A stretch of 63,210 nt of DNA, counting the filler, from Conidiobolus incongruus B7586 (Eukaryota): the NCBI GenBank assembly GCA_000697335.1. It is 16 parts of 16 records of this genome, joined end to end, with 100 filler letters (N's around TTAATTAATTAA, not from the genome) between each part and the next. Parts side by side here need not be neighbours in the genome. Positions count along the whole stretch, not along the records: positions 1 to 2,115 come from JNEM01006771.1; 15 more parts are not named here. The stretch is one strand, 5' to 3'. The notes beneath the pieces were generated by a model that was not told the origin of the DNA, ran no database searches, and saw only the letters and a list, made by a program, of their open reading frames with translations. Of this stretch, positions 1 through 30,437 are shown one piece after another (position 1 is the stretch's first letter; the number at the start of each line of letters is the position of its first letter). The position numbers and the translations under genes were made by a program.

Positions 1-234
1 TTCTTGGAGGGCAGTAAGCTCTTGGGGACTAAAGTCTTGGATTCACTCAGTAATTAAGCTGCCATCATCATTAAAATAATATGAGGGTATCTCCCTTTTT
101 GGTGGCATTATAGTATATAGTGTTAAATTTAAATGAAATAAATTATAGATAAGATTCAAAATAGCAATAATTAGGTTTGATACAGATAGTTATTAATATC
201 TAGTAGGTTTTTAATAGTTTTGTTGCTGCTACCA
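1..234 (-). mobile_element. 5' internal region of Ty3/gypsy (chromovirus) family-1 copy 1: PBS and gag start; element runs off the left edge
   Basis: On the minus strand the LTR end ...CTTACA is followed by TGGTAGCAGC (225-234), a tRNA-iMet-like PBS. ATG at 108 opens MPPKREIPSYYFNDDGSLITE*IQDFSPQELTALQE. Collinear with 8722-8955 and (reverse complement) 41781-42012. Confidence 0.85.
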
Positions 235-632
235 TGTAAGCATAGTGGTAGTTAAACTAATATAGTGCAGAGGAAGACTTAATATAAAAGTAGTGTGGCA
301 CAGAACGTGGTAATATAACGTGGCTGTAGCGTGCAAGTGTAAACAAAGTTTAATTAAGCTTCGAACTAGGATGAGTCACCGATATATTAAGATTTATATT
401 AGGTAGTGCCAATATCCTACAATGTCGACAGAATATAGTCTCAATCTTAGAAATAGTGTAAAGGTAAAAATAGTAAGAATTGAGAGGAAAAAAGAGGAAC
501 CTAGTTTATTAGATAATTTAATACTATTTATACAATTAATTTAACTATATAAGTATAAATTAATCATATAATTTATAGTTAATTGGATTATATAAAGTGT
601 ATATAAGAATTTAGAGAACTAGTCTCTTAACA
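235..632 (-). repeat. 5' LTR (398 bp) of Ty3 family-1 copy 1, the least mutated LTR copy
   Basis: TGTAAG...CTTAACA termini next to the PBS. Aligns with 3641-4039, 8956-9336, 37944-38334, 41381-41780 (rc) and ~52995-53384. Still carries several CpGs. Confidence 0.92.
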
Positions 633-875
633 ATAAAAATACTTTGTACTAAAAGATAATATATATCTTTAAATTATAATTAACCTACTATTATATTTTT
701 AAGTTAAAATAACATAATGGTCACAAAGTAATTTTTTGTTTTTTTTTTAAAATATTTAGCTTTTTTATTAAATCTTTTAAAATATATTTTTCTTTCATTA
801 AATTAAATAACTTTACTCTAATTAATTTTAGTTTAATTTTAGTGGTGAAATTTAAACTCTTACTTGACTTTATAA
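633..875 (-). mobile_element. Tc1 transposase fragment between the LTR and a mariner copy
   Basis: Collinear with 48140-48385 (KYGGG-WGC to WSDE region). Confidence 0.8.
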
Positions 876-2115
876 TATTAGTAAAAAAATTAAGTAATAA
901 CAAAATTTTAAAATTAAAATTAAATAAATAAATTAAAAAGTAATATATAAAAATTAAGAAAATAATATAAAATTTATAGCTTTTTTTATTATTTATAACT
1001 TTTTTTTATACTTTTAGTAAGTTTCTAATATTTAAAAAATAATTCTTTTTATTAAAAACTGAAATTTGTTATTTCACAAACCAATTTAATTTATTTGTAA
1101 GAATTTTTTTCTTGCAAGCTATTTTTTTAATTATTTAAAACAATTATAATTACATAAGTTATAATTAAATAAATATATTAGATATAGTAACTCCTTTTAA
1201 TTTTTTTATATAAAAATTCTTTTATAGCTTTAGCTTTATGTATTTTGTAATTATCATATAAAATAATAAATATCTTTAATTTATATTGAGAATACTATTT
1301 AAAGATTGTTTTATTTAAAAAGATAATATATAACTTATTATTAATTGATTTTCTTTAAGATATTAAATAAGAAAACTATATATTATTATAAACTATTACA
1401 ATAATTAACCTTTATTTATATTTAAAATACTTATTCATTAGAATTTATAGAGGGGATTAATTTAGCTTAACCTAACATCTTGTTTTATTTTTAAATAAAA
1501 GATTATATAAAAGAATTTAAGATTCATTAATTATAAGTATTCATTATAAAATCTTTTGTTTTTAGTTATATCTTAATAGATTTAGTTTAGCTATAACCAC
1601 TCTAATTTTTTTTAGGTTTTTGTTAAATTATAAGATATCTATTTTATATTTTTATTAATTAATTTAAGTTTAAACTTAAGTAAATATAACATGCTTATAT
1701 AATTAATATTAAATTACTTTGATAATTTTTTAACAGAAATAAAAAGGTATTTTTTAATATATTTTTTTACTCTATTAGTAAGTAAAAGAATAATAGTAAA
1801 AATTAGTCTTTTAAATTTTAGTAAATTTTAAATAATATTCCTTCTAGCTTTAAAATTATTAATCTAGTGATATATAATAGTTTTAAATAAAACACCATAT
1901 TTATAAGCTGTTTACAAGCTTTAAATGATTTTAAAGGGTTTATGATTAAGTTTTAAAGATACAAAAATAAAAGCCATTTGATAATTATAATCTAGTTTAA
2001 TCATAATTAAAATTAAATGTAAATTTTAAAATCAAAATATTTTAAAAAAAATAATAATTAAAATTATATATATATATGTATAGTTTAAAAATATTTATTT
2101 TCCTATATATTTTAT
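876..2115 (-). mobile_element. Mariner (DD34D) element, hypermutated; transposase relic from ATG 2004 to ~974
   Basis: Minus strand begins MIKLDYNYQMAFIFVSLKLNHKPF; collinear with 10985-12227 and 40163-40938, where the WVP, TIDE, HDN and YSPD motifs can be read. Right end lies in a gap. Confidence 0.85.
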
Positions 2116-3640: not shown

Positions 3641-4039
3641 TGTAAGTGTAGTGGTAGTTAAACTAATATAGTGCAAAGGAAAACTTGATATAAAAGTAAT
3701 GTGGTGCAGAACATGGTAATATAATATGGTTATAATATGCAAGTATAAATAAAGTTTAATTAAGCTTCAAACTAGGATGAGTCACTGATATATTAAGATT
3801 TATATTAGGTAGTGCTAATATACTATAATATTGATAAGAAGTAGTCTCAATCTTAAAAGTAATATAAAAGTAAAAAATAGTAAGAATTAAGAGGAAAAAA
3901 AAGAACTTAGTTTATTAAATAATTCAATTCTATTTATACAATTAATTTAACTATATAAGTATCAATTAATTATATAATTTATAGTTAATTGAATTATATA
4001 AAAATATATATAAGAATTTAAAGAACTAGTTTTTTAATA
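3641..4039 (-). repeat. 3' LTR of Ty3 family-1 copy 2
   Basis: Starts TGTAAG, ends at mutated TTAATA and abuts the PPT. Confidence 0.9.
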
Positions 4040-7000
4040 CTCCCCTAATAAGTTTTTTAGAAAAAACACACTCTTTAGATTTTTACAAATAGGTATAATA
4101 AGTTAAAGTACTCTTAATATTTTCTAGGGGTTCTTATATAACTTCTTTAATAAGATAACCTATCTATTTTATATAAAAATAAAGCTTATTCCTAATAGAT
4201 TTAGATTTAATTATGTAATTAATATAGTATTCTTTTTCTCTATCTTAATTAATAATTAGATCTAGTTTTAAAGTTTGTAATTAATTAAGAAAAGTATTAA
4301 AATTTTTAAAATATAGTTTAATTTTAGATATATGAAAGGTAAAATTGATTTTTAAAGTTAGAGGTAATTCTAAGGTAATATTTTCAAAATTTAAATCAAT
4401 AAATTAAATCTTATAAGGATTATAATATAATAATAAGTATTTTGGATTTAAACTAGATTTAAGTAAGATAAGTTTAAAGATAGATTATTCTAAATATATA
4501 AACATGTTAATTTTATATTTAAAAAGATTTTTAGATAATTTTAAGTATTGTTATTCTATGATCCTTTAATTTTCTTTTAAGTTAAATTTAATAAGGGAAT
4601 TAATATACTTGATATTAGATTAAAATTCAACAATATCTAAAGATAAGTTGATTTAAAGTTTTAAAGTAATTATTAAGTTAGGATGTTTATTATAATTGAT
4701 GAAATAAAGGTTAAAACCTGTTGATTTATTGATAAAAATGTTGAATGAATATTAGAGTTGGTAGATATAAATATTTTAATTTAATTAATTAATGTTAATA
4801 TAAACTTTAATCATTTGCTTTAAGGTTTTAATAGTTTTTTCAATAAGTTTATTGGTTTAATAATAATTGATAATAAATATAGTTAGGTTAACTTTAAAAG
4901 AAAAAGATAGTAACTTTTAAAATTAAGAGTTGAATCATATATCTCTGTTAAATATAATAGTTTATAGAATTTTATAGTAGGTAAAAATAATAGAGAATAA
5001 TAATTATGTAACATCTTTAACTATAGAAGTTTTGAAACAAAAAATAAAATATACATATTTAGAAAATAAATCAATTATAATTAGTAAGTTATTATAACTA
5101 TTTGTTAATTTAAAGATTTTCATGAAATCAAGTTAAATTTATTATTAAGTTTTATTAGGGACTTGTAGAAGAATAAGTTTATTATATTTTAGTTAAGTAT
5201 TATATTTAGTTTTTTAGCATATATTACAGGTATTAATGTATTTCTAAACTAATTTAATTAAAGAAGGCTAGTAATACTTTATTTTAATTCTCTCAACAAT
5301 CTTTAACTAGTTTTAATGTCCTTTAATAGGTAAGTTATAATATTCATTAAATATTATTTGTTAGATCTTAGGAATATTAAGAATATATAAACAATTATTA
5401 TAATATAATAGGTTATTAATAATTTTAAATTTTTTAACATATTTTAATTAGTTTTCTAATAATTTAAAGAGTTTTTCTTTAATTAAAATAAAGAAATTAT
5501 TATTTAATAATATTTCTTAAAATAGTTTAATAAATTTTTTATTTCCTTCATTAATAGTTATTAAGTTAATATTTGCTGGGTTTGTACAATTAAAATAAAA
5601 AGGTAAATATATAAGATTTTTTAATAAAGTATCTATAATATAATTTTATTAACCTAAAAGATATTAAATAAAAAAAAAGTAAGCTTAGATAATTTTAATC
5701 TATTTAATTTATTTTCTTAATAAATACTTCTAAGTATTTAAGTAAATAAGTGATTTATAATTAATAAGTATTAAGAAAAAGTTACAAGACAAGAAATATA
5801 AGTGATTTTTGATTATTTCTACCAAAGTAAAAAGTTTTTGTTTATAGATTAAATATTTTAATTCAGCTGGTTTTATTTTTCTTAATTAGAATGTTATTGG
5901 TTTTAAAGTAATATTTATAAGGTTAAACTTAACCTATTCTCCCCTATTTATTATTTTATCTTATAGTTAAAGGATAAAATATAAATTAAATTTAAATTAA
6001 GCTAACTATCTACTAATTACAAAAGAATTAAAATTAGTAAAAATAATAGTAGGTAGTTTTAAATTAAAAATAAATAAAGCAAAAACATTAGTAATATAGA
6101 AAATTAAATCATTTATATAAAAAGTATATAGTAAAGTTTATTCAAAAAAAGAGTTTTTTTTTAAGAGATTAGTAAGAGAAGTAATAAATTCAATAAAAAA
6201 ATCAATGAAATTTTTAAAGTAATTTAATAATTTAAGTATAAACATAAGTTAATCTTTGTTTATAAGTATAGTAAAAGCTTTAATATTATTAAGTTTAGTT
6301 AAATTAATATTAATTCTTTAAATAGAAACAATATAACTATAGAGAAAGATAGAAAAAACACTAAAAATAAATTTTGATAGTTTTAAAAGTAATTTATATT
6401 CTTAAATAATTTATAAATCTTGATTAACATATTAAATATATCCTTCTTTAGTTTTTAAATAGATTAAGATATTATTAAAGTAAATGATAATAAAGTTATT
6501 AAAAACAAGGTTGAAAAAAGAATTGATGAATTAAATAAAAATTACAAGGGTATTATACAATCTAAAGTTTATAACTGTAAATTTATAATAGCTTAAAAAG
6601 TATTAAAAATAATTAAAGAGATAGAATTTTCTTTAACTTTAATGTTATAATATCTATTCTTAACATTTAATTTAATAAATATAGTTGATTTAAATAGTTT
6701 ATCCTTAATATCATATAAGTTTAGTAATAAAGTTTTATCCTTAATAGTTTTAAAGTTTAAAACATAGTTGTTAATATATAATCTCTAACCACTATCAACT
6801 TTTTTTATAAAGAGAATTAAAGATTTTTATAGTAAAGAAGAAGGTTTAATATACCTATTTTTAAATAGTTTTTAGATTTCTTCTTTTAAAGTTTAATATT
6901 ATTCAAGAGATAAATGGTAAATAAACTTTAAATATAGTTGTATATCAAAGAATAATTTAATTCTGTGCTTAATATTATATTTAAAAGGTAATTTATCTAT

Positions 7001-8955
7001 AAATTTAAAAACATTAGCAAATTAACTTACTATATTATATAGGAAGTAGTTATTAGATATAACTTTATTGAAGTTAATAAATAAAATGTTAATAGATAAA
7101 TAATAAATAAATACATATCTTTATAAATTATTAAGGTTTTTAATTAGATTTTTACAGTGATTTTTGCTTATAATAGTAGAATTATTTGCTACAATTGTAG
7201 AGTTAGTGTTATATATAGTATTTAATAGTTTTATAATAGGGTAATATAGATTTTTTAAGATTAATTCTATTAATTTCTTTTGGAATATAAAAAAAATAGA
7301 TTTATAACCTTTTAAAATAATATTTATGGATATAAAACTATAATATTCAAATTAATTTTAACTTAGTATAAAATTATAACTAATATTACTAACTAAAAAT
7401 TTAAAATATTAAAAGTAGTTAAGGTATAATAATAAATATTTAAATAGAGTATTAAATATTTATTCTATTAAGTTATTAGTATATTTAATTATCAAGTTAC
7501 TTTTTTAGATAGGTAAAGATAGTTTTATAATAATAATAAAAAAGATAATACAATTAAAACAACTAAAATTAATTAAAACACTAACAAGTTTATCTATAAA
7601 AGAATTAATTAAAATAAACAATAAGGTGATAGTTAAAGGTAAAGAATTATAAGGTAGATTAGTTACTAGAATATTTTTAGTTTCTAGTAGTTTAATCAGT
7701 TAGATTTCTCTAGTATATATAGTTTAATTTGTGGGATCATTAGTTTATTAGAACTTTTGTAGATTAAATTAGAATCTGATAACTAATTGTAAAAGAGGTG
7801 ATTCTAAAGTTATATAAATATTATTCAGGTTTTATTTATGGTTAATAAGTTAAGATTGTTGAAAATTAAACAGATGTTGTTTTTTTAAAGGGTATTTGTT
7901 AGCTTTATAATTAACTTAAGTTTTTTAACAATAATAACAACTTTTATTTACTCTTAAGTAAGTTTTAACTTCTTTACTAAAGGTTTTCTTATAAAGCTTT
8001 AAAGTAGAAATATTTATTATTTGAGATTTAAATAAGTTAGAGTAAGTTTTAAAAGATTAATTTTTAAGATAGGAAAATTTAATTATAAAGTAAAAAATAT
8101 TATCAATTATAATTGTTATATCACAAATATTAGAAAAAAACATATTATTAAAGTGTTTTTTACTAACTAACTAAAGCTTTAATTAAAAATTAAAGTATTA
8201 TAATAGTTTGTGGATTTATTTTTCTTCAGTGATATTTGGTATATTTAAGCATATCTCATTAAATTTCTCAATTAATTATCTTGTAGAAGTTTTTTATTTA
8301 AGCTAAAAAAGCTTTTCTTTTGTTAATTAAATTTAATCTTTTAGGTGATACCTTTTTTTAAAGATTTTTTCTAATTGTTTAAAAGTTTATATCTTTATAA
8401 TAAATTATCCTTTTAAAAATTTTTTAAGATTAAGTTTATAATAAGTTAACTACCAAGTATAAATAAATTTTTCTAAAAAAAAAGTAGCTAATTTAAGGAT
8501 ATTTTTTAAATCTTTATTAAAGATTAAATCAAGGTAATTTTTTAAATTTTTAAAATAGTTTTCAAGCTTGTAAAGTTTTTTAAAATTATCATAAATAGTT
8601 AATTTATCTTTAAAGATATTAAAGAGGTAGTTTAATATATTAATTATAGTGAAGTAGTTGGTTTGTTAGATTTAAACTCTTTAAGACATATTTTTTTTAA
8701 TTAGAAGTTGTTTAATATAGGTTTTTTAGAGGGTAATAAGCTTTTAAAGGTTAAAGTCTTAGATTCACTTAATAATTAAATTGCTATCATTATTTTAATA
8801 GTATAAAGATATCTTTTTTTTAATTGTATTATAATATATAATGTTAAATTTAAATAAAATAAATTATAGATAAAATTTAAAATAGCAATAAATAAATTTA
8901 ATATAGGTAGTTATTGATTTCTAATAAGTTTTTTGTAGTTTTATTACTGCTATCA

Positions 8956-9336
8956 TATAAATATAATAGTAGTTAAACTAATATAATATAGAAGAAAACT
9001 TAATATAAAAGTAATGTGATGTAGAATATAGTAATATAATATAGTTATAATATATAAGTATAAATAAAGTTTAATTAAGTTTTAAACTAGGGTGAGTTAT
9101 TAATATATTAAGATTTATATTAAGTAATATTAATATACTATAATATTAATAAAAATTAGTTTTAATTTTAAAAGTAATATAAAAGTAAAAATAATAAGAA
9201 TTAAAAAGAAAAAGAAAAACCTAGTTTATTAAATAATTTAGTATTATTTATATAATTAATTAAATTATATAACTATAAATTAATTATATAATTTATAGTC
9301 AATTGAATTATATAAAATATATATAAGAATTTAAAA
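8956..9336 (-). repeat. 5' LTR of Ty3 family-1 copy 2 (end lost in gap)
   Basis: TATAAA (from TGTAAG) directly after the mutated PBS; collinear with 235-615. Confidence 0.88.
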
Positions 9337-12327: not shown

Positions 12328-13690
12328 GGTTTTTGAGATAAAAGGATATATTTAACAATATATAACTATATCTTTTTTCTCTCTTTGTTATTATTTTATA
12401 TAATATTTTACAAATATATTAAATTTTTTTTATTAATATTATTATACTTAAATCCCTCTTTAAAAAAATCCACTTATATATTAATTAACTTTATAAAAAA
12501 GATAAATCAACTTATAATATTGTTAGAATTACTAGTGTTAACTAGTTTACTATAGTTAAAGTTATTAAGAATAATAATAAAGAAACATTTAAATTTAAAC
12601 TTAAGCATATTAAAATTATAAATAAACATGATAAGAAGTATATTTGTAGGTTAGTTAATATAAATAAATGTGGTACTATTAAAGAAATATAAGAGGAATT
12701 ATAAAACTATACAAAAATATTAGTTAGTATTAATATTATTATATGTGTTTTATATTAACATAGATATTATTTATACTTTAAGAAAAAACACCCCTAATTA
12801 AAAAAATTCTATTGTAAAATTAAGTAAAAGTTTAAATGTTATTATTAATGTTAAATTAAAACTAATTAGAGTAAGATTATTTAATCTAATAAAACAAAAA
12901 TATACCTTAATAGATTTAATAAAAAAGCTAGATATTTTAAAAAAAATACAAAACTACTTTATAACTATTATATTAATTTTACCCAAAAGTATAATAATAG
13001 GTTAATTATTATTTAAAGATATATGTTGTTTTTAGGTATAGGGTATTTTTATAAAATTAATAGGGGAATTAATACTAAAATATATTAAAATATTCTAAAC
13101 AATAAATTGAAAAAAACTATTAAATAATATAAGTTAAATAAATTTAATGTTATTTTTTAGTAAGATAATACCTTTTGTTATACTATAACTTTTATTATTA
13201 AATAGCTTAAAAATAATAAGATAATAGTTATAAAATAGCTTTTTTAATTTTTTAACTTTAATCTAATTAAACACTCTTAAGATTAATTAAAAAAAGTTAT
13301 TAAAGTTTTTCCCCCAGCAAAAAATTTAAATCAACTTTAAAAATATATTCAAGAAGTATAAAATAAAATTAACTTTTTTTAGTGTAAGAAGTTAGTTGAT
13401 TTTATACCTTACAAACTTAAAGAAGTTAAAAAAGTTAAAGGTAGATACACTAAATTTTAATTTTTTTTTATCACCAAAAACTTATAAATTTATAACTCAC
13501 CTTAGGTAAAATTTAAAGGTTTATATTTTAACCAATTAATAACTAAATATCATCATTTAATGATATATATAACTAATAAATATAATAAATTTTAATTATT
13601 TAATTTAAGTTTATTTTATTAAATATTAATTAAGTTATTAATAAAAATATAGGTGTTTTTAATTTTATAACTTACTTTTACAGGTTAGTA
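12328..13690 (+). mobile_element. Tc1 (DD34E) subfamily A1 copy, 5' end in gap
   Basis: Collinear with 59834-61192; ends CTTACTTTTACAGGTTAGTA|TA. Confidence 0.9.
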
Positions 13691-15003
13691 TATTAATAAT
13701 ATATTAATTTACAAATCCAACTAAGTTTTATAATAAATACATATTTTAAATTAAATTATTAAATAAATATTATTAAAAATAAACTTAATTCAAATTAAAA
13801 AGATTAATTATATCACTAATCATTAATTATTTAAAGTAATAGTTTAAATATATTATTTAAAATAATATATTTATTTATTATAAAAATTAAAATAATTAAT
13901 AATTAATTATATTAGGAGTTATATTTAAAAATATATTATATAATATTTGACAATGGGTTTAAGTATATATTATTGAAATAAAAAATTTTTAAAATCAAAT
14001 TAAACTTTGTTATAGATAGGTTTTTTAATATATTATTTTAGAAATCATTTAGGAAGTGTTTATTAATTAAACAAATTAAATTTGTGGCTATTTAATACCA
14101 AATAATTCAACTTCAAAAAATGCCATTTTATCAATATACTGTAATATTTATACAAGTTATTAAGTTGGCCATAATAATGAATTGAGTTAATAAAATGTTA
14201 CATAACATACAAAAACTAAGAAAATTTAAATGCTAGTTATTTCTTGAAACAACTAACTATTCTATATAGAATTTAAAGAGATATTTCAATTAAATTTCTC
14301 AATTCTTGAAATTTAAAATAATGAGTAAAGTTTGAAATTAATACTATTATTGCATATAAGCCCAAATATTTATAGATTTACTTTACATTACAGTCCGCAG
14401 TGAGTTGATCCTATTTTAAAATATTATGTACCTTATAATTTTAAGTAAGGTGGGCTTCAGTACACATTTTCATTATGCTTAACTAACCAATTTAAATAAT
14501 TTAAATTCAAAACTGTACATTCTTAATGCTTTCAAGTCTTTAAAACATATCAAAGTACATAAAGATAACTCAAACCTCAACAACCAATGAAAATTTCCTA
14601 TTGTAAAAGGAGTGAATCTAAGAATTGAGGGAATTTGAACTAACCCCTAAAACCTTTGAGATTAAAATTGGACGAAAATTTGATACTGGAGAAAAGAATT
14701 TAGTACTGAATTAGGAATGGAACTGAGAATTGGATTGAGAAAATTGGGTTAATTACAATTAATTTGATATTCTTGCTGTAATTTTTATGGTATCAAATAA
14801 ATAATAAATGGATCTTATTGGTTAATTTTAGAAATTTAATGAGTTTGATTTTGGACTGCTGTTAAATCTGAGATGGGTTGAAAAATTAGTTTAAATACTG
14901 GAGAGTTGGCAACCTGTTCATTATATTTTTTCGTTGAATTTTTGATTTTTATAAATTATTTCAACTTTTTAATTTCTATCGCCGAATATAACTTTGAATT
15001 GTA

Positions 15004-15735
15004 ATGAAATTGTATAGTATCTTAGTATTAAGTTTAGTTCGATTTGCAACTAGTAGATTCTGTCCCGAAGACGTTGTCAAAGATCAAGGGGAGGCTTGTA
15101 GAAAAGCAGCTAACGAGGTTGAGGTAAAATTTCCCAAGCTAGAGGTGTGCTTAAGGGACTCTGAACTATTCTTCAGTACTTTGGAGGACGTGTGCAAGGA
15201 TGACTGCAAAGATATAGTAGTTGCCGCTTCGAAATATGTTGCCGAGAATTGTCCAATTAAGGACCATACTTGGGAGAGAAAACCTATTTTGAATAGTTGG
15301 TTACGTTTATTCAGCAACCCTATTGGGTCATTTTTAGACAGTTCTGACCGTCTTACCTTGGTCGAAAACAATAACTCTGACGAGTTAAAGAATGGCTTAC
15401 ACATTTATTACGGGTGGAAGAACGCTACTATAACCAATTTGGCTTGTAAAAGATTTGAGGGACAACATATGCGATGCTTGAAGCAGATGATGGCAGCTTC
15501 CGATTTCATGGAGAATTACCCATACTTCAAACCCCCCGAAGGTATGACTAAAGACGAGTGGATCAGATCCGAAATTTGTTCGGAATGTCCCCGCCAATTT
15601 TATCATCTCGTCCGTGTTGGCGAGGAACCTACCCTTTACTACTGGACTATCCACAAGTCCGAAGAGTTGCACAAGGAATTGGGTACTCGTTGCGGCTATA
15701 GCAAAGAGCATCCAAAGTTTACTTTCAATTTTTAA
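15004..15735 (+). CDS. Secreted cysteine-rich protein of unknown function (243 aa)
   Basis: Intact ORF in a GC/CpG-rich island; N-terminal hydrophobic signal MKLYSILVLSLVRFATS; 11 Cys; a paralog lies at 17018-18038. Confidence 0.85.
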   Translation: MKLYSILVLSLVRFATSRFCPEDVVKDQGEACRKAANEVEVKFPKLEVCLRDSELFFSTLEDVCKDDCKDIVVAASKYVAENCPIKDHTWERKPILNSWLRLFSNPIGSFLDSSDRLTLVENNNSDELKNGLHIYYGWKNATITNLACKRFEGQHMRCLKQMMAASDFMENYPYFKPPEGMTKDEWIRSEICSECPRQFYHLVRVGEEPTLYYWTIHKSEELHKELGTRCGYSKEHPKFTFNF

Positions 15736-17017
15736 TCATGACGATTCTAATTCCAAAAAAGTGAAGGCTATCAGTGATCATGAGTCAGTAAGATTTAAGG
15801 AGTTAGTCAGGAACTTAATGTTACATTTGCCAGATGATTAATATTCTACAGATTACACAAATTTAAAAAACTCTACTAATTGTTATAAATTTATTTATAG
15901 TTTTAATAAAATATATGAATTATAATATATTTGAAAATAATCTAATTAATGGAAGCATTCATATTAATATATTTTTAATAGAATATTAAATAATTTTATC
16001 AATTTTATTAAAACATTTTTTCAATATATAATAAAAAATATAACAAATTATTTTTTACAAATTGAAAACTCAATTAAAACATCTAATTAAAAATTATCAA
16101 TATTTAGCATTTTCAGCTTATATACTTAATTTGCTTAATTTTAAAAAAAATTGAATGCCACTTTTGAGATAAGTAAATTATTATATTTAATAATTCTTAG
16201 TAATTAGGTAATATTGGACTATTCATTATACTATTAAATACTCAATACTTCAATATTATATTAAGATTAATTATATATAAATTGTGATATGATATGATAT
16301 AATATTTTTTAAATTAAAATCTTTAATTATATTATTATATTCTATGTGATATATAAAAATATTTTGATAAATTGATATATTATTATTTAAAATCAAAATT
16401 ATTTAAAATTTTCATTATATGATCTAGTTATAAAATAATATATTTTTTATACTTTATCTAAAATTTCAGTATACGTTTCCATTTATTATTAGAAGTTTAA
16501 ATTGATATAATAAACAAATTTGTATATTCATTTAGCCAAATATTAATTCCTATTTGATCAATTAAGTTCAAAAAAATATTTTTATTTGTAATTTCTGTAG
16601 TTATATATTATTATAATTATTATAGCATAATAAGTCATATAGTAATTATTCAAGTAAGTTCAAGGCATATTTCCAATAATTAATCTAATTTAGGTCTTAA
16701 AACAAAATTATTCAAATTGATATATTTAAGCAAAATTAACTCTATATATTTCTTAACCATTTGAAACTAAAGAAATAACTATATTAGGTGAACTTCAACA
16801 AATTTCAACTTTAACTAAAATCCATTAAGTTTCTTGAAATCAAAGAATAGTAATGCAAATTTGGAGTATATTTCATAGACTAATTAGTATTTTTCACCTA
16901 TTTTAGTACAGTAAGATATATTGTAAAATATTATGTATAGAATATATAGTTCTAAGCTGCAATGTTGTTATTAAAACTTTTTGTAGTAAAATGTTATTAA
17001 TTATATTATAAAATAAT

Positions 17018-18038
17018 ATGAGAATTAAATTAACAGTCATATCCAGTTTAATTTAATTGTAAATTTGTAAATTTGTTTCTAATTCCATTGCCAAATATCA
17101 GGACAAGGCATGCCAGTATGTGGAAAACGACTTAGAGATGAAATTTCCGAAACTGGAGCCATGCTTCAAGTATACGGGACTGTATACGAGTAGTTTGGAG
17201 TACATTTACAAAGCCAACTGTTCGAATTCCGTTGTAGAAGCTTTGCAATACATTGCCAAGAATTGTCCGATTAAAGATGGTAGTTACTATAGACATAATC
17301 ATGGGATTCACCTTCACCACAGTTGGAAGAATTTTGACATTACAAAATTGGCATGCAAAAAATTTAAAGGTCAGCGTCACAAACACTTGAATCAAATGAG
17401 GATTTCGCAACAATTTAGAGAGAATATCGATAATAAAACTCCGCTGGAAGGGGAGGATAAAGACTAGTGGATTAAGTCCAATATTTATTCGGAGTGGACT
17501 AAGTGCTTGTATCGTAAAATTGAAGTTGGAGAGGAGCCCATTCTCTATATTATGGGACATGTGTATCCTCAATTAATGTAGGGATGAAAAAAATGATGCA
17601 AGCTTGGACCAAGACAAAGATGATGATGACGATGACAATTTGAACCATAGTAAAGGTGGCACTCCAATATCACGTAAATCTGAGGAGAATGTCGAAAGTA
17701 AGGAAGCTGGTAGTAGTATATCAGAGGCGAGTCAGGATCAACCCTAAGGAGATAAACAAGTTGATGAAAAGATCGGATCTATCGAGAAATTAGATAACAC
17801 GAAGGATCAAGCTGACATCACCACTGAAGAATCCCCAATCAAATCTGATAATTATATGAATAAAACACCTAACAATGATACCAACGAGGACAAATCCGAT
17901 AGTGAGGAAGTAAGCTCAGAAAAAGTCAATTCCAAAACAGATTCAGCAGCTTAAAGTCAAGTAGAAACTAAAGATAAACTAGTACCTGCAGCCGATACGA
18001 AACCGGATGGAACTGACGTGGATGCTACCCCAAAGTAG
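17018..18038 (+). pseudogene. Pseudogenised paralog of the 15004 protein with an acidic low-complexity tail
   Basis: ATG 17018 in frame: MRIKLTVISSLI*L*ICKF...ACQYVENDLEMKFPKLEPC...KNCPIKD...LACKKFKGQ...KD*WIKSNIYSEW...VGEEPILY, matching KFPKLEVC, NCPIKD, LACKRFEGQ, KDEWIRSEICSEC and VGEEPTLY. A D/E/S/K-rich frame with two more stops then runs to TAG 18036-18038. Confidence 0.85.
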
Positions 18039-18899
18039 CTCTATCTCTATTTGAACAAGTAGCCAAATCAGCATAAGGTTCCTAATCAAATGCAATAAAT
18101 TAATTATGATCAAATTTTTCAATATTAAATGGATATTTTATAGTATATAAATTTTATTAATTATATAGTATTATTACTGAATTGAATAAATGAAAAAAAT
18201 TTAATTTTTGGTTTTGAAAACATATTATTAATTTTAAAAAAATTAATATATATAATATTTTAATTATTAAAAAAATTAACTTTTTAAATATTTTTGTTTA
18301 TTTTAATTATATTAAAAGTAAATAATATTTATTAATAGTTTTTTATTTTATAATTAATAATATTTAACTATATATATATTTCAAAATTATATAAAATTTA
18401 TCAATATATTTTAAATATGATATTTTTTAATTAACTATTTATTGCTAAGNNNNNNNNNNNNNNNNNNNNNNNNNNNNNNNNNNNNNNNNNNNNTTAATTA
18501 ATTAANNNNNNNNNNNNNNNNNNNNNNNNNNNNNNNNNNNNNNNNNNNNTTAAAAAAAATTAAATCAATAATATAATTATTATTAATTCTTGAAATAATA
18601 TTATTATTAATTAATATTTTTAATTTTATTTAAGTAAATTTATTATTTGACATAATAATTATGAAAAATACTATTAAAGTTTGAAAAATATTTTAATTAT
18701 TTTTAATTAGAAATAATTGCTTTATTTACTATTATTAGTCGATTTAAATTATAAAAAATTTTGAGATTTAAATTAAATAGATAATTTAATATATAAATTA
18801 CAAAAATAAATATATATCATAAAATCTATATATTATTTTAATATCAATATCCCTTAATTATACTTTTAATAAGTTTTAATTATTTAAAAAATTATATTT

Positions 18900-19280
18900 T
18901 TTATTTAAAATTAAAATTTAATATTTTATTAACTAATTAAATTCTTTTATTGAAATTTTCTTACTTATATGCTAATTTTTAAATTTTAAAAACAATTATA
19001 TTTATATAAGCTATTATTTAGTAAGTATACTAGATATGGTAATTTTCTTTAATTATTTTTAATCAAAAATTTTTTATAACTTTAATTTTATATATTTTAT
19101 AATAACTATGTAAAATAACAAATATCCTTATATTATCTTGAAAATATTAACTAGAAATAAATTTATTAATAAAAACAATATAAATTTTATTTTTAGTTTA
19201 TTTTCTCTTAAATACTAAATAAAAATAATATACACTATTATAGTTTATTAAAAAAATGAATATTTAATTATAAATAAATT
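18900..19280 (-). mobile_element. Highly decayed mariner fragment (catalytic region); ends approximate
   Basis: Collinear with 40250-40620. Confidence 0.7.
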
Positions 19281-20818
19281 AACTTACTTAGCTTATAAAA
19301 TATTAAATTTTAGTCTTTAATAAAAATATTATTTTTTAGATATAAAAGACTTGATAAAATATGGCAAAAAATTAATAATAAAATAAGTATTTATTTTATA
19401 TTATGTATTAATCTTGATTAAACATATTATAATAATTATATTTAATTGTAATTTCAAAACTATGATATTATTTAATTTCTACACTAATAATAATGAAACT
19501 AGTATAAATATTATAAGAATTACAGTCAAGTTAATAATTAAATTAATTGAATGAAAACAAGGCTTAAAATGAATTTTAAATATATTTTTAATTATAATTA
19601 ATTATAGTATAAAATAGAATAACATTATATTACAACTGATTAAAAGTCTTAGAAATTTTAATATAATATATTTGTTAAACCTATATAATTTTTGTAGAAG
19701 GTAATCCAAGTAGAAATTTAAAATATTTTTGTATATATTGAATAACTGTTAAATATTCAATAAAATCAAGAATTTCTAATTTTATTCTTATATCACGCAG
19801 TAAAATACTGACAAAATTTAATTATCAAAAAAATGAACTTAAGAGTTATAGTGAAGCCAAAACTTTAAATCAATTAAATATAACTTTAATCAGCTATATT
19901 TATATCTAAAAAGGTTTAATCATTAGAAATACTGGCTTTTGGTGAATCTATCTAAACTTTTATATTGAATTTGAAATTGATTGGTCTAAGTTGAAATAGT
20001 GACAAATTTTCAAAAAGATTTAAAATATTGAATTGATGTAAAAGAATTAAGTTACAATATTGATTATCTATACTAATTATAGTAATTATTTAAACTAAGC
20101 AATCACAACAGGTTTACTTAAGTAAACAATTTAAAGAGTATAAATATAAATTATAATAGTTTCATATATATATTAATTCCATATATGATTAATTTAATCA
20201 AATTGAATCATTCATTTCTATTATTGTTATTATTAAATTTTGTTCATAATCCAATAATATTATTCAAATTACTTCAAAAACAATTCTTTTATCAATATTA
20301 TATTGAATATTTATGTTAATTTTATATTAGGAATTTTGGGATAAAATTATTGACAATTAGCGATGATGGTGGTTGATATTGTCATTTTTACAAATTGTAA
20401 CTTTGAAAATCAGTTTAAGTTCTAAGCTTAAATCTAAGTGTTGAATTGTAATGAGTATGTTTAATTAAATCACTACTACTGCTAATACTACAAAATTTGT
20501 AATATACAAAAATGGATTTCATAGTGACATCAATATGACTGAATAAGTGACAAATTAAGAATGAAAAAAATCACTCCTTAATTTAATAAAATTTACAAAA
20601 CAGTCACAATGGTTCACATTTGGACCAATCACTTTGTTAGGAATTATTCAGGAGTATTAACAACATTTCAGAGTATAAATTGAGAGAATATCAAAACTAA
20701 AATTTTAAGTCCTTTGAAATTTGAGTGATTATAAATTTATATATTAAAAAATTAATTTAGTGTATATTAAAATAAATTACAATATTGTATATTATTAAAA
20801 TTTTTGAAAGTTTCTACA

Positions 20819-23011
20819 ATGTCAGATTTAGATTCCAACAAAGATAAGCTCTATTCCTTCAGTCCCGCTCTTCCCAACGATAAGCGCGTGTCATTAGCCA
20901 AAAATCCCGACGATGGGAGTGTAATACCACGATTGGATGAAGCGGGACATATTCAGCAGCCAAAATTGACTAAGGTTAAGGATGTGAGTCCCAATTTCGG
21001 TACAGATTTACCCAATTTAGAATTGGAGGAGGATAAAAGTAAGTTGAATGTGGAGTTGGATGGAAATAGTAATATCAAAACGATAGATGAAGCTAAGGTA
21101 GGTAATTTGAACGACGCAAGCCCCAATTCGGATCATACCGGAGATTTCGTCATTGTGACTACAGAGGGGGAGAAGACTGGTGATATGGGATTCCAGCTGG
21201 GACGATCCCCTGGCAATCAGCACCAGAATGTGTTGAAAGACGATAAAGAAACTTCAGAATTGTTACAATCGTTCGATGGCGAAAGGACCAAAGTAACTGT
21301 GAAAAATTCCGAAATTTCGGCGGTAGAGATCGAGAGAACAGAGTCCAGCGAGCCGTTGGTTGGGGTGGAGCAGAGATTGACCAAGCAGCCGCAGATTTTG
21401 CCACAAAGTTTCGAGGGGAAAGCTACTCACGTGGTGATTCAGAATCCCGATTTCAAAATGAATGAAATATTGTCTGCTACAAACCGGTCTAATGAATCCA
21501 AAACTGTCGATGACAATATGAACAGTGACTGCGAAGCTTTTAAAGTGTCGGATATTGTACCAAGCATTCCAGATAGTAACCCATCGAAATTGGTAACGCT
21601 TGGGACCACAGCACACTTGAAAGAGCAATTAACCACATCATCCAATACTGTTGCCTCAACATTTAATGGCGATCCTGTCCAAGTCACAGTACAACGACCC
21701 GAAAATCGTCGCAGCTCCACTAATTCTCTAGACTCTTACGACGGCGAATCCACTAAGGTTGAAATTCACAGTCCCGGCTCACTCCTCTCTGAAACTTTGG
21801 ACTTTCAATTCAATCCGCAAGAGACTATCATTGGCGACTCAATGCATTTGACTAATGGACTCCACAATCGTAAAGATTCGTTGCATTCTTTTGATGGCGA
21901 ACCTACGAAAGTGAAGGTTTTAAATTCCAAAAACGAAGTTGGCAATTCTTTGGATTCAGAATTGAATGTAGGTCAACTAACTCAGCAGTCATCAACTTTG
22001 CCTCAATCATTTTCTGGAGTTCCTACACATTTGGAGGTTCAGAATGCTGACAAGGATTTGAATAATAATAATAATAATAATAATTCAATTGGAATTGAAG
22101 ACTTGCCAATGGTGTCACATTCCTTAGATCCTGAGGAACCCATGAAAAATCGAGATATAACCAACACAAATTCGGAAGGCGCCTCCAAATCAAATGCAGC
22201 GCAAGATGACGATAATGAAAAATTCTACGACGTTTACGAAGCTCCAGAACTCGATTCATTCGTTAATAAGGACATTTCTATCACCAATAACAAGGTATCT
22301 CCATCCTCCAAAAAAGTTCAATTTGACACTGGAGCTCAATCCGAAGATGAGGAAGAAGACGAAGATAATGACGAAGATGTCAACTACTACAAAATCTTAA
22401 CACTTCCAAGCTATCCCAAACACATTCCATCTGTCGAAGTGATAACCAACATGTACAAAAAGCACATCCTCATGGCACAATTTGACAAGTATGAATATCT
22501 CACATCCCACCATAAAGAGCCTCTTACCGAAGACTCGGAAATTGAGATGCGCCTCAAAGCAATCACAGAAAGTTACTTAGTGCTGACGGATTCTCAAGAA
22601 AAGTTGAGATATTTCCGCCACCGTATGCATACTCCCACAGAGGAGTTCGAATTCGACTATGACAGCCTAGTCCCTAAGAATTACGACCTAATATTTTGCA
22701 AAGTCTTCCACGAGGATTTAGTATTTCCACTATTCCCTCCAAGATTTTTCTTCATTCCAATCACCATTGTACTTGGCTACATCTTGGGCTTCTACTACTA
22801 CGGCTTCATAGGTCTAATCCTTGGAGGCTACTTATTCAGTTACCTTGGAGATTATTTGGACACTAGACCCAACTGTAGTACTATTACAAAATGGAATACT
22901 TTGAATGAGAATCAGAGGAAAGCATGTATTCACGGATTGATAAGGAAGTTTTTTGAGAATAGAGAAGGGTATTATATTGATATTAGGGCTAGTGATTTTA
23001 AATTTGTTTAA
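20819..23011 (+). CDS. 730-aa protein: long disordered N-terminus with six short repeats, degenerate J-domain (no HPD) and C-terminal membrane hairpin
   Basis: First ATG at 20819 (the ORF track starts at TTG 20804). NYYKIL...ITNMYKKHILMAQFDK...LKAITESYLVLTDSQEKLRY follows J-domain helices I-IV; hydrophobic FFFIPITIVLGYILGFYYYGFIGLILGGYLFSYLG follows. Confidence 0.85.
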   Translation: MSDLDSNKDKLYSFSPALPNDKRVSLAKNPDDGSVIPRLDEAGHIQQPKLTKVKDVSPNFGTDLPNLELEEDKSKLNVELDGNSNIKTIDEAKVGNLNDASPNSDHTGDFVIVTTEGEKTGDMGFQLGRSPGNQHQNVLKDDKETSELLQSFDGERTKVTVKNSEISAVEIERTESSEPLVGVEQRLTKQPQILPQSFEGKATHVVIQNPDFKMNEILSATNRSNESKTVDDNMNSDCEAFKVSDIVPSIPDSNPSKLVTLGTTAHLKEQLTTSSNTVASTFNGDPVQVTVQRPENRRSSTNSLDSYDGESTKVEIHSPGSLLSETLDFQFNPQETIIGDSMHLTNGLHNRKDSLHSFDGEPTKVKVLNSKNEVGNSLDSELNVGQLTQQSSTLPQSFSGVPTHLEVQNADKDLNNNNNNNNSIGIEDLPMVSHSLDPEEPMKNRDITNTNSEGASKSNAAQDDDNEKFYDVYEAPELDSFVNKDISITNNKVSPSSKKVQFDTGAQSEDEEEDEDNDEDVNYYKILTLPSYPKHIPSVEVITNMYKKHILMAQFDKYEYLTSHHKEPLTEDSEIEMRLKAITESYLVLTDSQEKLRYFRHRMHTPTEEFEFDYDSLVPKNYDLIFCKVFHEDLVFPLFPPRFFFIPITIVLGYILGFYYYGFIGLILGGYLFSYLGDYLDTRPNCSTITKWNTLNENQRKACIHGLIRKFFENREGYYIDIRASDFKFV

Positions 23012-23866
23012 AATTTAAATGATAATGATATAATAATGTTTTTGGATTGTTAAGTTGAACTTTTTTAATAAATTATTCTTTTTTCATAAAGAAAATATGT
23101 TTTTAATTAATTTCTAAACAAAATTTTCAAATAGTAATATATTATTCATAATCAATGATTATAATGATTAAAAAAATTTTATATTAAAATTCACTCATTA
23201 AAATTTTTATTAACAAAATATTATTCAATATCTAGAAATATAATTATATAAATAAAATTATTATGTTTTTTAAAAATAGATAATTATTTATATTGAATTA
23301 ATTATTATTTCCTTATTTTTTTATTAATGATTTATAATATATATTTCAATTTTTGCAAATAAACTCAATTGTCTCAACAATAAATTTTATATATGGTTGT
23401 CTTTTCAAAGTATTAGCGACTTTAAATAAAAATAGGGGAAAATGGTTTTTTTGAAGTATAATTAATTATAAAATTACTAATATAAAATACTTTTAGGAGT
23501 TAAACTGTATTAAACAACTTAAAAACTTTTCTAAAGGTATTTATTTTATGTTTATAACTTAATTATTACTTAAACATAATTAAAAAATAAACAGAAATAT
23601 GATGCAATATAAAAATATAACAAAATAAAGGATTTTTTATGAATTAATTAAAAACTTTTTTTTATATTAGTAAACTTTGAATAAGTGGTTCATTTTGTTT
23701 ATAAAAGAATAATAGAAAATTTTTAATCTTAAGCTTAATTTAAATATCTCATCAATTTCCTAATTTGGAGTGAAGACTGTATTCCAAGGATAGGATCAAA
23801 AAATTACATGATATTTATATTCAAAACATAATACAGCAACCAAAAGGAATTAGACACTCAGTCTGG

Positions 23867-23870
<4 letters not shown>

Positions 23871-23902
<32 letters not shown>
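23871..23902. repeat. (TA)n microsatellite
   Basis: Perfect TA run; shorter runs at ~3542-3564 and ~12177-12196. Confidence 0.9.
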
Positions 23903-23906
<4 letters not shown>

Positions 23907-24880
23907 TTTTGGTAAGTAGTTATGATATAACATATTATTTTATTTTTATTAACCTTCCAGCTTTCTATATTCAATTCACTTAATGATTTCTTATATTCTT
24001 AATAACTTTGGCTATATTGAAATATACAAAATAATTTGATAACACTAATATTTTTAATATATATTATTCTAATAAATATTCAGTATATTTAATTATCAAA
24101 TACTATGTTATTTATTGACAATGTATGATTGATATTCAATGATATTTTATTTTGATATTAATGACAAGGTTGAATTTAAGTAAATAATCTAAATCCAGTT
24201 TTAAAAAAATGCCAAGTTAACATATATATATATATTGCAAAACCATATTTTTAAGGTATTTAAACTTAGTGATTAAACTCTATTATGAAAGTTTGAAAGA
24301 CTCCTAATATCTCACTTGAGTAAAATTTGCATCATTTTGTCATTAATATCCATATTTTCTTTAATAAAGTCACCACGTTTAAGTTTATTTCAATCATTTT
24401 TAAATTCTATAAAATTTTCTAGAAATAATCCTTATTTTATATCAAATTATCAAATTTTTAATATTATAATACTTACCTTTGTTAACTGTCAAATCCAATT
24501 AGGGTTAATTACGCCAACATTTCATCACCACTCATTACCAAGCTCAAGAATTCATGCAGTTATAAATTGGATGTTAATTCCCATCCATACAAACAATAAT
24601 CAATTAAATAAACATCACAACTTTTATTCAACTCAAATTCTAAAAAAAATTAGCATCAAGTTCAATATCACAATAAATTTAACCCCCATAACTTAGTAAA
24701 TCACCACTTGATATTAATGAAATCATCTTGACTTATATGAATTCATCAATATAATGAATATTTTACTATTTAAAATTTTCAGGAGTATTTTCAAAATCCT
24801 TAAAAAATACCCAAACACCATGAAAAATTTAACTAGTTCCAGAAGAAATAAATTACTGGCAAGAGCTAAAAAAACTAATT

Positions 24881-24914
24881 ATTAATTAATTAATTAATTA
24901 ATTAATTAATTAAT
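24881..24914. repeat. (TTAA)n tandem repeat
   Basis: ATTAATTAATTAATT... run with no flanking Ns. Confidence 0.85.
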
Positions 24915-25541
24915 TTTCATAGCCTATAAAATTTCATAACATTCAAATTTTTTTATTGTCTCATTTAACTCTCAACTTTAAAATTATTTTGAATTCATTG
25001 CCATTAATTAAATTGATTCTGTGTTACAATAATTGTACTTTGATGATTAAAATTCAATGGTTGATTGAGAGTGTATAGTTAATTCATAATGGATATAAAT
25101 TGACGACTTAATAATACATTAACACTAATTAGAAACTGACTTAATGACTTATTATTAAGTCCATATGAAAATCCCATAATAATAAATCCTTGGGACTTGA
25201 CAACTCTTGTATTATTAATATGAATTCCGATTTAAAAAATAAATAATATTTAGTTTATTAATAACTGAAATATTAAAATAATAAACTTTATTATAAAAGA
25301 TTTTTAAAATTTATTAAAAAGAAATATTATTTATTATTAATTAAAATTGATATTGATTATTAAAGTTTTTTATTTTGTAAATTTATTTTATTTTAGCATT
25401 TGGAATAATAAAATCAGTTTGAGTGTTTGGAAATAGTTGAATATAACTCTAATTTGATTTATTAGGTAATTATTCTTTATTTAAACTTTTCATATTTTTT
25501 TTTAATTTTAAATTTTTAGATTAACTTTTGAAAAAAGCGTA

Positions 25542-27494: not shown

Positions 27495-27727
27495 TTAAAA
27501 TATGTAAATAATTTATTTGCTAACCAAATATACTTAACAGAGATTACCCATTATTTAAACCAAATAAAAAATAAAAATTACTTAAAATATTTAAAATTAT
27601 AAAATTAATTTTAATTGAATATTATATATTTTAAAATAAAGATCAATAATTAGTTATCAACCCGTTTAATTGGGAATAAAAATTCAAAAAATATATATAT
27701 ATATATATGACTAATTTATCTCGAATC

Positions 27728-30094
<2,367 letters not shown>

Positions 30095-30404
30095 TATTAT
30101 TTTTATTTAATATTAATAATTATATTATTTTTGTATTTATTAACCTAATCAATTTTTTAATTAAAAAATTTTTAGTTTTTTGTTGGATTTGAGAAATGTA
30201 AAGTTTAATTTTAAAAGTTGAATCAAATTGATTTTAAGGGATTAGATATTTATGATTTAGTTATTATATTATGGGATTAAAATTAGGAATTTATGAATTG
30301 ATTATATTTTGATCCATCATTATATTTTTTGTTAAATATTATATTGAATTAATAGTATTAAATCCACAACTTTCTGGATTGTTTGATATTTCCCATATAC
30401 TAAC

Positions 30405-30405
<1 letters not shown>

Positions 30406-30436: not shown

Positions 30437-30437
<1 letters not shown>

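What the first reader, a model, noticed from the sequence alone, without database searches (positions are those of the whole stretch)
235..632. Mutation context is broader than classical RIP, and LTR copies form a graded series
Seen: LTR 235 AACGTGGTAATATAACGTGGCTGTAGCGTGCAAGTGTAAACAAAG becomes AACATGGTAATATAATATGGTTATAATATGCAAGTATAAATAAAG (3641 copy) and AATATAGTAATATAATATAGTTATAATATATAAGTATAAATAAAG (8956 copy). CpG disappears completely, CpA and CpT are also hit, and C-runs often survive (ACACCCCCAAC, TTCCCCC, PPTs). Neurospora RIP prefers CpA; passive 5mC decay would be mostly CpG. Inference: order CpG>=CpA>CpT>CpC, acting over repeated rounds.
Basis: partly seen in the sequence, partly recalled or inferred. 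Interest (0 to 1): 0.75.

Follow-up and report, generated by a model that had tools for sequence, protein, structure and literature searches.

The report
Repeat-killing C-to-T mutation outside Dikarya
Transposon copies in this stretch of a likely Conidiobolus-related early-diverging fungus have lost many of their cytosines to C-to-T change in the order CpG > CpA > CpT > CpC while neighbouring genes are spared, likely through a methylation-linked genome defence in a branch of fungi where a recent kingdom-wide survey found none.

Summary
Against the near-intact LTR at 236-632, the five other LTRs lost C at CpG 45/58, CpA 82/132, CpT 112/239 and CpC 6/27; 0 of 29 CpG survive. Nine Tc1 copies give CpA:CpT:CpC = 1:0.65:0.16, with flat rates rejected. 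Young copies differ by 14% transitions and 0.4% transversions. CpG decay plus AT bias fails in simulation, and adjacent unique DNA lacks the signature. The two LTRs of one element differ 6 versus 40 in private losses. The strand-clustered runs typical of RIP are absent in the pooled data and appear in 1 of 9 Tc1 copies. Such breadth of context is already known from ascomycetes. What is unusual is the host: its genes place it beside Conidiobolus in the Entomophthorales, and a 2025 survey scored 8 of 8 Zoopagomycota as having no RIP. Best reading: a chronic, repeat-targeted, methylation-linked mutator (0.5). Many weak RIP-like rounds are the main rival (0.3). No enzyme was identified.

The parts
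1..632 (-). Least-mutated LTR retrotransposon end: internal 1-235 plus LTR 236-632 (5' LTR, by a primer-site-like TGG next to it on the minus strand; inferred). Inserted into a Tc1 fragment. Used as near-ancestral reference; keeps 6 CpG.
   Evidence: (dose 0.06, 0 private transversions)
3641..9336 (-). Dead LTR element in one gap-free contig. LTR 3641-4039 (3' LTR, purine tract on the minus strand) is moderately mutated; LTR 8956-9336 (5' LTR, cut by a gap) is heavily mutated.
   Evidence: 6 vs 40 private losses, p=3e-7; the two LTRs share 3 variants found in no other copy
37944..39095 (-). LTR 37944-38334 plus 760 bp of internal sequence, ending at a Tc1 insertion
41383..45498 (+). Second element: LTR 41383-41780 plus internal region; continues at 47073-47493 beyond a Tc1 insertion
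53000..53385 (-). Most mutated LTR (GC 0.091)
47501..49037 (-). Least-mutated near-full Tc1 copy. Transposase frame 47734-48712 is collinear with 16 stops (DDE_3 and HTH_Tnp_Tc3_2 hits).
12328..13695 (+). Tc1 copy with 0.12% private transversions but about half of non-CpG C lost
36183..37558 (+). Tc1 copy, older or from a sister subfamily (2.7% private transversions)
45502..47063 (-). More diverged Tc1 copy; in the pairwise count, left out of the rate fits
49280..61193 (.). Cluster holding Tc1 copies 49280-50850, 51217-52790, 57757-59306 and 59622-61193 and mariner fragments 55894-56305 and 56925-57757, all mutated (also spans a tRNA-Cys and a ribophorin II-like gene, which lack the signature)
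62397..63210 (-). Tc1 fragment; the only Tc1 copy of 9 with same-strand clustering (z=3.7, p=0.005)
873..2111 (.). Mariner-like family copy (others at 10981-12226, 18721-19281, 40060-40938); older, with the same CpA>CpT loss
   Evidence: weak DDE_3 hit, E=0.0035
61333..62396 (+). Internal control: young Ty3/gypsy of another family (RNase H, integrase zinc finger, LTR 62072-62396) inserted into the Tc1 at 62397; pol part unmutated (GC 0.36, CpA o/e 1.26)
14998..33229 (.). Control and host marker: host gene block (SUN-domain 25512-27494, protein kinase 27728-30106, PMT2 30758-33229) with CpG o/e 0.82 and CpA 1.04 in coding DNA. It shares a gap-free contig with the mutated mariner copy at 18721-19281.

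Best explanation
Transposons of three families in this likely Conidiobolus-related fungus are degraded by C-to-T change on both strands, fastest at CpG, then CpA, CpT and CpC, likely because a cytosine methyltransferase marks repeats in all contexts and the marked cytosines are converted to T steadily over many cell generations. Shown here: the spectrum, the order of contexts, confinement to repeats, strand balance, unequal dose between the two LTRs of one element, and stops shared by all Tc1 copies. Inferred: (1) repeats are recognised and methylated by a DIM-2/DNMT1-type enzyme; (2) conversion to T runs far above ordinary deamination, as with the Dim2-dependent mitotic mutator of Zymoseptoria tritici; (3) hits fall one at a time on either strand rather than in long single-strand tracts; (4) dose depends on age and on local chromatin; (5) dead copies are re-mobilised in trans and hit again. 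C-runs survive because only their 3'-most C is in a fast context, so they erode from that end.
For: Spectrum: Tc1 12328 vs 47501 differ by 14% transitions and 0.4% transversions; CpA hits per site are about 20-800 times the private transversion rate per copy. Order: Tc1 CpA:CpT:CpC = 1:0.65 (0.57-0.74):0.16 (0.11-0.24), LTR 1:0.50:0.25. The same order appears with no ancestor call and with the least-mutated copy as reference. Simulation through the same pipeline recovers 0.50/0.37/0.09 for these rates against 0.48/0.35/0.09 observed; CpG plus flat gives 0.34/0.34/0.32. Confinement: unique DNA 3240-3640 beside LTR 3641 has CpA 28, CpT 24; 55750-55890 has 8 and 3. Strand balance: 2 of 14 copies at p<0.05, summed chi2 19.6 on 14 df, p=0.14. 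Pooled same-minus-opposite-strand covariance is z=-0.3, and tract models hitting 8% or more of CpA per tract were rejected in 0 of 100 runs each. Age: the two latest nested insertions (1-632, 61333-62396) are the least mutated. Run erosion: CpC with the 3' C kept 26/256, with it lost 79/213. Genome-wide contigs of the runs that hold the window: 62 of 69 variable places on 1-632 are C>T/G>A (X3); 229 of 238 on the Tc1 are transitions (X1). Precedent: Z. tritici Dim2 gave >95% C>T in mitotic lines (PMC8016269); DNA_methylase-domain genes are reported in all entomophthoralean genomes of PMC11105155.
Against: No methylation data and no methyltransferase gene of this host were seen; no genome is held. 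The Z. tritici mutator is >98% CpA and spares CpG, unlike this pattern. In Neurospora, methylated H3K9me3 domains show Ts/Tv 0.93 and no C>T excess in mitotic lines (10.1101/2022.03.13.484164), so non-CG methylation alone need not do this. A steady clock is rejected: dose is not proportional to private transversions (p=0.0017 Tc1, p=0.02 LTR; Spearman 0.58, p=0.10). One Tc1 copy (62397) does show same-strand clustering (z=3.7, p=0.005; 1 of 9), and the LTRs show weak short-range same-strand covariance (z=1.9, p=0.03 at two of five distance bins). Tract models at 2% per tract (and 4% with 100-bp tracts) are not rejected. Losses are correlated between copies (phi 0.08-0.38), so the intervals are too narrow. 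The contig evidence probably comes from the window's own sample and is not independent.
Confidence: 0.5

Rival explanations
1. A RIP-like process tied to the sexual (zygospore) stage recognises repeats by homology and mutates one strand at a time, but weakly. Hundreds of light rounds have averaged out the strand signal.
For: Repeat confinement with sharp edges. Extreme Ts/Tv. Dose not clock-like and unequal between same-age LTRs. One copy with strand clustering. Weak tracts are not excluded. A RIP index of 24.2% is reported for Zoophthora radicans (PMC11105155). C. coronatus has 0 repeats of 1 kb at 95-100% identity vs 555 at 80-95% (PMC12543289 supplement).
Against: Neurospora RIP clusters are 91.9% single-type (PMC7296669), whereas here 8 of 9 Tc1 copies show no clustering, including the lightly hit 47501 and 39096. 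CpG is the fastest context. [quoted passage not shown] 8 of 8 Zoopagomycota were scored no_rip.
Confidence: 0.3
2. Purely spontaneous deamination of dense, all-context 5-methylcytosine with poor T:G repair. The order of contexts simply mirrors methylation levels, and no mutator activity is involved.
For: Strand balance and independent hits. CpG fastest. Youngest insertions least hit. A weak extra loss at symmetric CAG/CTG (o/e 0.56 vs 0.67-0.94 expected from simulations started on coding or young-TE DNA; p=0.0016 in Tc1, not significant in LTR or mariner).
Against: Non-CpG loss of about 50% against 0.1-0.5% transversions in some copies is a very large ratio for chemistry alone (inference). Methylated Neurospora heterochromatin shows no such skew in mitosis.
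Confidence: 0.15
3. CpG deamination plus a genome-wide AT bias, or an assembly or sequencing artefact.
For: Unique intergenic DNA is itself 20% GC with CpG o/e 0.36. The scaffold has many gaps.
Against: CpG decay should raise CpA/TpG, but it is depleted (0.55-0.87) in repeats and 1.16 in unique DNA. CpG plus flat simulations give CpA o/e 0.89-1.14 and CpC 1.18-1.49, against 0.66 and 1.80 observed. The same spectrum appears in run contigs.
Confidence: 0.03
4. An APOBEC/AID-like deaminase edits single-stranded transposition intermediates.
For: Directional C-to-T change with context preference.
Against: It should be one-stranded and limited to retroelements (established knowledge). Here both strands are hit equally, cut-and-paste Tc1 and mariner copies are hit, and the two LTRs of one element differ. 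The main determinant is the 3' base; 5' effects are small.
Confidence: 0.02

Closest known systems
Dim2-dependent mitotic C>T mutator of Zymoseptoria tritici (PMC8016269; abstract and passages read)
   Same: Nearly all changes in transposons are C>T, non-CG contexts are hit, and the effect is confined to methylated repeats.
   Different: There >98% at CpA with CpG spared; here CpG is fastest and CpT runs at 0.5-0.65 of CpA. There an ascomycete with the enzyme shown; here a likely Zoopagomycota fungus with no enzyme shown.
Repeat-induced point mutation (RIP) of Neurospora crassa and other Pezizomycotina, RID- and DIM-2-dependent (PMC7296669, 10.1101/115501; passages)
   Same: Directional C:G>T:A in repeats, CpA depletion, TpA gain, dead transposons with Trp/Gln stops, and genes spared.
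   Different: No same-strand clusters in the pooled data, CpG fastest, and a host outside the phylum where RID and RIP are accepted. Timing and RID were not testable.
Mixed dinucleotide signatures in ascomycete transposons: CpG+CpA in Tuber melanosporum and Aspergillus, CpA+CpT in Botrytis, Sclerotinia and Magnaporthe; CpG-only in rusts and Microbotryum (PMC4352252; abstract and passages)
   Same: More than one context is hit; a CpG methylation layer plus a CpA/CpT layer is a possible reading here too.
   Different: That paper ties CpA/CpT signatures to RID in Ascomycota only; here all four contexts form a graded series in a non-Dikarya host.
RIP-index signal in Entomophthorales, Zoophthora radicans 24.2% (PMC11105155; passages and a supplement search)
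   Same: Same order of fungi and same suggestion of RIP outside Dikarya.
   Different: That is a composition index over 1-kb windows with stated caveats. In the passages read there is no copy alignment, context rate or strand test, and no value for a Conidiobolus.

Membership tests
RIP (Neurospora type) | Large excess of C:G>T:A transitions in repeats | tested here: met
   14% Ts vs 0.4% Tv between two Tc1 copies; 62 of 69 and 229 of 238 variable places in run contigs
RIP (Neurospora type) | Confined to repeated DNA; unique genes spared | tested here: met
   Coding CpG 0.82 and CpA 1.04; unique flanks CpA>=CpT in most bins, intermediate at 13720-14050, 19290-19700 and 35800-36082
RIP (Neurospora type) | CpA is the dominant target | tested here: not met
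   CpG 45/58 > CpA 82/132 > CpT 112/239 > CpC 6/27; CpT at 0.5-0.65 of CpA
RIP (Neurospora type) | Mutations in same-strand clusters (91.9% single-type, PMC7296669) | tested here: not met
   Pooled z=-0.3; tracts hitting 8% or more rejected; 1 of 9 Tc1 copies positive; tracts at about 2% not excluded
RIP (Neurospora type) | Acts before meiosis in the sexual cycle | not testable with these tools
   Needs crosses or zygospore progeny
RIP (Neurospora type) | Requires RID/Masc1 | not testable with these tools
   No genome held; literature reports no RID outside Dikarya in the proteomes surveyed
RIP (Neurospora type) | Triggered by homology above a length and identity threshold | tested here: inconclusive
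   Edges are sharp and mutated copies level off at GC about 0.09-0.15, but the young gypsy is unhit and its copy number is unknown
Dim2-dependent mitotic mutator (Z. tritici type) | >95% C>T within repeats | tested here: met
   About 97% transitions in the youngest pairs; 96% in contigs; older copies lower
Dim2-dependent mitotic mutator (Z. tritici type) | CpA-specific, CpG spared | tested here: not met
   0 of 29 LTR CpG intact; CpT heavily hit
Dim2-dependent mitotic mutator (Z. tritici type) | Occurs in mitosis and needs Dim2 and non-CG 5mC | not testable with these tools
   No genome, methylome or lines available
CpG-only methylation decay (basidiomycete type) | CpG lost while other contexts are flat and slow | tested here: not met
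   Flat model rejected; simulations fail
Host placement: Entomophthoromycotina (Zoopagomycota) | Window genes group with entomophthoralean proteins, away from Dikarya | tested here: met
   SUN protein: best named hit Conidiobolus coronatus 55% over 68%, E=2.5e-195, next named 2.6e-41. PMT2: best named hits Entomophthora muscae 46% and Massospora 44%. Clade with those two at SH-aLRT 100 in a quick tree of 37 rows (36 of the 120 listed hits).

The most novel reading that the evidence does not exclude
Conidiobolus-related fungi run a dedicated repeat-destroying C-to-T mutator that is independent of RID, works in all four dinucleotide contexts without strand tracts, and either predates the split of Zoopagomycota from Dikarya or arose separately. 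Kingdom-wide k-mer screens miss it because the unique non-coding DNA is equally AT-rich.
Probability: 0.35. Interest if true: 0.8.

Novelty: new variant of a known kind. Interest (0 to 1): 0.58.

Why it matters
The most recent kingdom-wide survey concludes that RIP-like signatures are unique to ascomycetes and scores all 8 Zoopagomycota, C. coronatus included, as no_rip (PMC12543289). An eLife 2024 paper raised the opposite possibility from an index alone. This window gives copy-by-copy, context-resolved evidence that repeats in a likely entomophthoralean fungus are mutated to death, with a signature that fits neither Neurospora RIP nor the Zymoseptoria Dim2 mutator exactly. If confirmed, it moves the origin of mutational genome defence deeper or shows convergence. 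It would also explain why small Conidiobolus genomes lack young long repeats while sister Entomophthorales genomes ballooned. The question becomes directly testable in a culturable organism.

Tried and rejected
Genome-wide analysis on an assembly: none is held. Validating polarity by an open transposase frame failed: the GC-polarised column calls still leave 11 stops and a longest open stretch of 92 codons, read as a pre-mutated founder, though very hot sites could contribute. Strand clustering was tested three ways (covariance by distance, runs test, power-calibrated statistic) and found in 1 of 9 Tc1 copies only. A gradient along the 3641-9336 element was not found: internal windows are even relative to the second element (p=0.85). 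A CHG/CWG preference is weak and inconsistent and is not claimed. A 5'-base rule is weak. A proportional clock was rejected. A target-site check for the 3641-9336 element is impossible because a gap cuts the second LTR. Runs X5-X7 under the same species label gave no laid contigs, which is no proof of absence; no RNA holder was listed. Rows dropped: Tc1 copies 9456 and 39528 (separate subfamily, counted apart), 45502 (left out of the rate fits), and LTR 53000 (left out; kept in 24, 41). The Bewick 2019 methylome survey was not held under the id tried; it may bear on methylation in Zoopagomycota. Paper searches returned no alignment-based report of such mutation in Conidiobolus; subscription journals are mostly not searched. 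Two look-ups of earlier notes for this genome or taxon found nothing.

Full report
Observation. Self-comparison shows that most of 1-13700 and 36183-63210 consists of three repeat families. They are an LTR retrotransposon, a Tc1 transposon (DDE_3 and HTH_Tnp_Tc3_2; collinear frame with 16 stops in the best copy) and a mariner-like family (weak DDE_3 hit; the name rests on recalled motifs). A gene block lies at 14998-33229.

Host. The PMT2 exon has Entomophthora muscae (46%) and Massospora cicadina (44%) as best named hits among the 120 listed of 1337. It groups with them at SH-aLRT 100 in a quick, unfinished-search tree of 37 rows, apart from the Ascomycota and Basidiomycota rows. The SUN protein's best named hit is Conidiobolus coronatus (55% over 68%, E=2.5e-195; next named hit 2.6e-41). 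Both genes share a gap-free contig with a mutated mariner copy. The host is therefore likely a Conidiobolus relative (Entomophthorales, Zoopagomycota) and not C. coronatus itself.

Composition. Repeats have CpG o/e about 0, CpA 0.57-0.87, CpT 1.27-1.51 and CpC 1.2-2.4. Unique intergenic DNA (GC 0.20) has CpG 0.36, CpA 1.16 and CpT 0.90; coding DNA has CpG 0.82. The shift ends within a few hundred bases of most repeat edges.

Context rates, four ways. (a) Pairwise, with no ancestor call: Tc1 discordant C at CpA 1693/2681, CpT 2302/4693, CpC 203/952; LTR CpG 11/11, CpA 200/279, CpT 292/534, CpC 14/41 (pairs are not independent). (b) Leave-one-out likelihood fit: CpA:CpT:CpC = 1:0.65:0.16 for 9 Tc1 copies and 1:0.50:0.25 for 5 LTRs. 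(c) With the least-mutated copy as reference: LTR 45/58, 82/132, 112/239, 6/27 for CpG, CpA, CpT, CpC; internal region 32/46, 27/55, 2/8 for CpA, CpT, CpC; Tc1 378/691, 455/1140, 26/256; mariner 145/201, 130/255, 16/32, where CpC is the exception. (d) Contigs of runs that hold the window, probably the same sample: 62 of 69 variable places on 1-632 are C>T/G>A in X3 and 58 of 64 in X1. Of the 35 such rows among the 40 of 71 shown, 10 of 12 available CpG, 20 of 55 CpA, 4 of 83 CpT and 1 of 32 CpC are listed (a biased display). On the Tc1, 229 of 238 (X1) and 240 of 251 (X3) places are transitions. Simulation shows that the pipeline returns the input order and that CpG decay with flat non-CpG rates cannot give it.

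Magnitude and dose. Tc1 copies 12328 and 47501 differ by 14% transitions and 0.4% transversions. Per copy, CpA hits per site are about 20-800 times the private transversion rate. Dose tracks age loosely: the two latest nested insertions are the least hit. It is not proportional to transversions (p=0.0017). The LTRs at 3641 and 8956 flank one contiguous element and share 3 variants seen in no other copy (3641 also shares 2 with 41780r), yet they carry 6 vs 40 private losses (p=3e-7). Local setting therefore matters (inference). Eleven stops are common to all 8 Tc1 copies examined, and losses are correlated between copies. This suggests that dead masters were re-amplified and that some sites are hotter than others; it also makes the quoted intervals too narrow.

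Strand test. Neurospora RIP clusters are 91.9% single-type (PMC7296669, passages). Here C>T and G>A loads are balanced in 12 of 14 copies (summed p=0.14). Pooled same-strand covariance is null for Tc1 and weak for the LTRs (z=1.9 at two bins). Whole-copy rounds hitting 5% or more, and tracts of 100-1000 bp hitting 8% or more of CpA, are rejected; about 2% is not. One Tc1 copy, 62397, is clustered (z=3.7, p=0.005, 1 of 9).

Mechanism. The data fit many independent hits on both strands of repeats, with CpG fastest. I favour a methylation-linked chronic mutator (0.5), by analogy with Z. tritici Dim2 (PMC8016269), although that one spares CpG. Many weak RIP-like rounds in zygospores remain possible (0.3). 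Pure spontaneous deamination (0.15) is weakened by Neurospora mitotic lines, whose methylated domains show no C>T excess. No enzyme, methylation or timing was shown; these steps are inferred.

What is known. Multi-context signatures are described in ascomycetes (PMC4352252), so breadth alone is ordinary. Outside Dikarya, PMC11105155 gives only a RIP index. PMC12543289 (abstract, sections 8 and 9, supplement rows) finds RIP-like signatures only in Ascomycota and lists 8 of 8 Zoopagomycota as no_rip. Its own table shows C. coronatus with 0 repeats of 1 kb at 95-100% identity and 555 at 80-95%, as a mutator would leave (inference). PMC5751038, PMC7862722, PMC13297926 and 10.1101/115501 were read as passages. 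Eight searches found no alignment-based report for Conidiobolus. Earlier AI notes of this scan describe similar patterns in Dimargaritales and Endogonales (8 of 16 shown); they are unchecked and are not counted as support.

Verdict. It works like RIP in outcome but fails two tested RIP features, so it is not filed as RIP. It is a new variant of repeat-targeted C-to-T genome defence, notable for its lineage. The evidence is limited to one 63-kb window and contigs of probably the same sample.

Noticed in passing
window 61333-62396: Young Ty3/gypsy of a different family, inserted into a Tc1. Pol stops after the integrase zinc finger (apparent internal deletion). Its LTR has CpG 0 and CpA 0.84 while the pol part has CpG 0.41 and CpA 1.26, as if the LTR were hit first.
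   Followed up: partly
window 39093-39427 and 47499-47833: Two Tc1 ends 97% identical sit about 34 bp apart in the same LTR-element region, in opposite orientation relative to the element. The pieces 37944-39095, 47073-47493 and 41383-45498 add up to one element, so this may be a Tc1-mediated inversion or a scaffold misorientation.
   Followed up: no
window 47734-48712 and sister copies: Eleven in-frame stops are shared by all 8 Tc1 copies examined, yet more than 20,000 contig pieces per run lay on this element, suggesting large-scale mobilisation of a dead master in trans.
   Followed up: partly
window 14998-15735 and 17063-17572: Two paralogous cysteine-rich ORFs, the first with a signal-peptide-like start; no Pfam hit; the second has an internal stop.
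   Followed up: no
window 9456-10813 and 39528-40070: A second Tc1 subfamily, 87% alike to each other and about 75% to the main one, with the same CpA>CpT loss in a small sample.
   Followed up: partly
window repeats, pooled: CAG/CTG o/e 0.56 and CAC o/e 1.88 in repeats; neither is fully reproduced by the dinucleotide-only simulation, so longer contexts may matter.
   Followed up: partly
window 2116-2215 and 15 other gaps: Every scaffold gap is 44 N, a 12-base TTAA-type spacer and 44 N: an assembly filler, not biology.
   Followed up: no
window 2757-2830 and 53756-53829: tRNA-Lys and tRNA-Cys genes each lie within about 800 bp of an LTR and keep their CpG.
   Followed up: no
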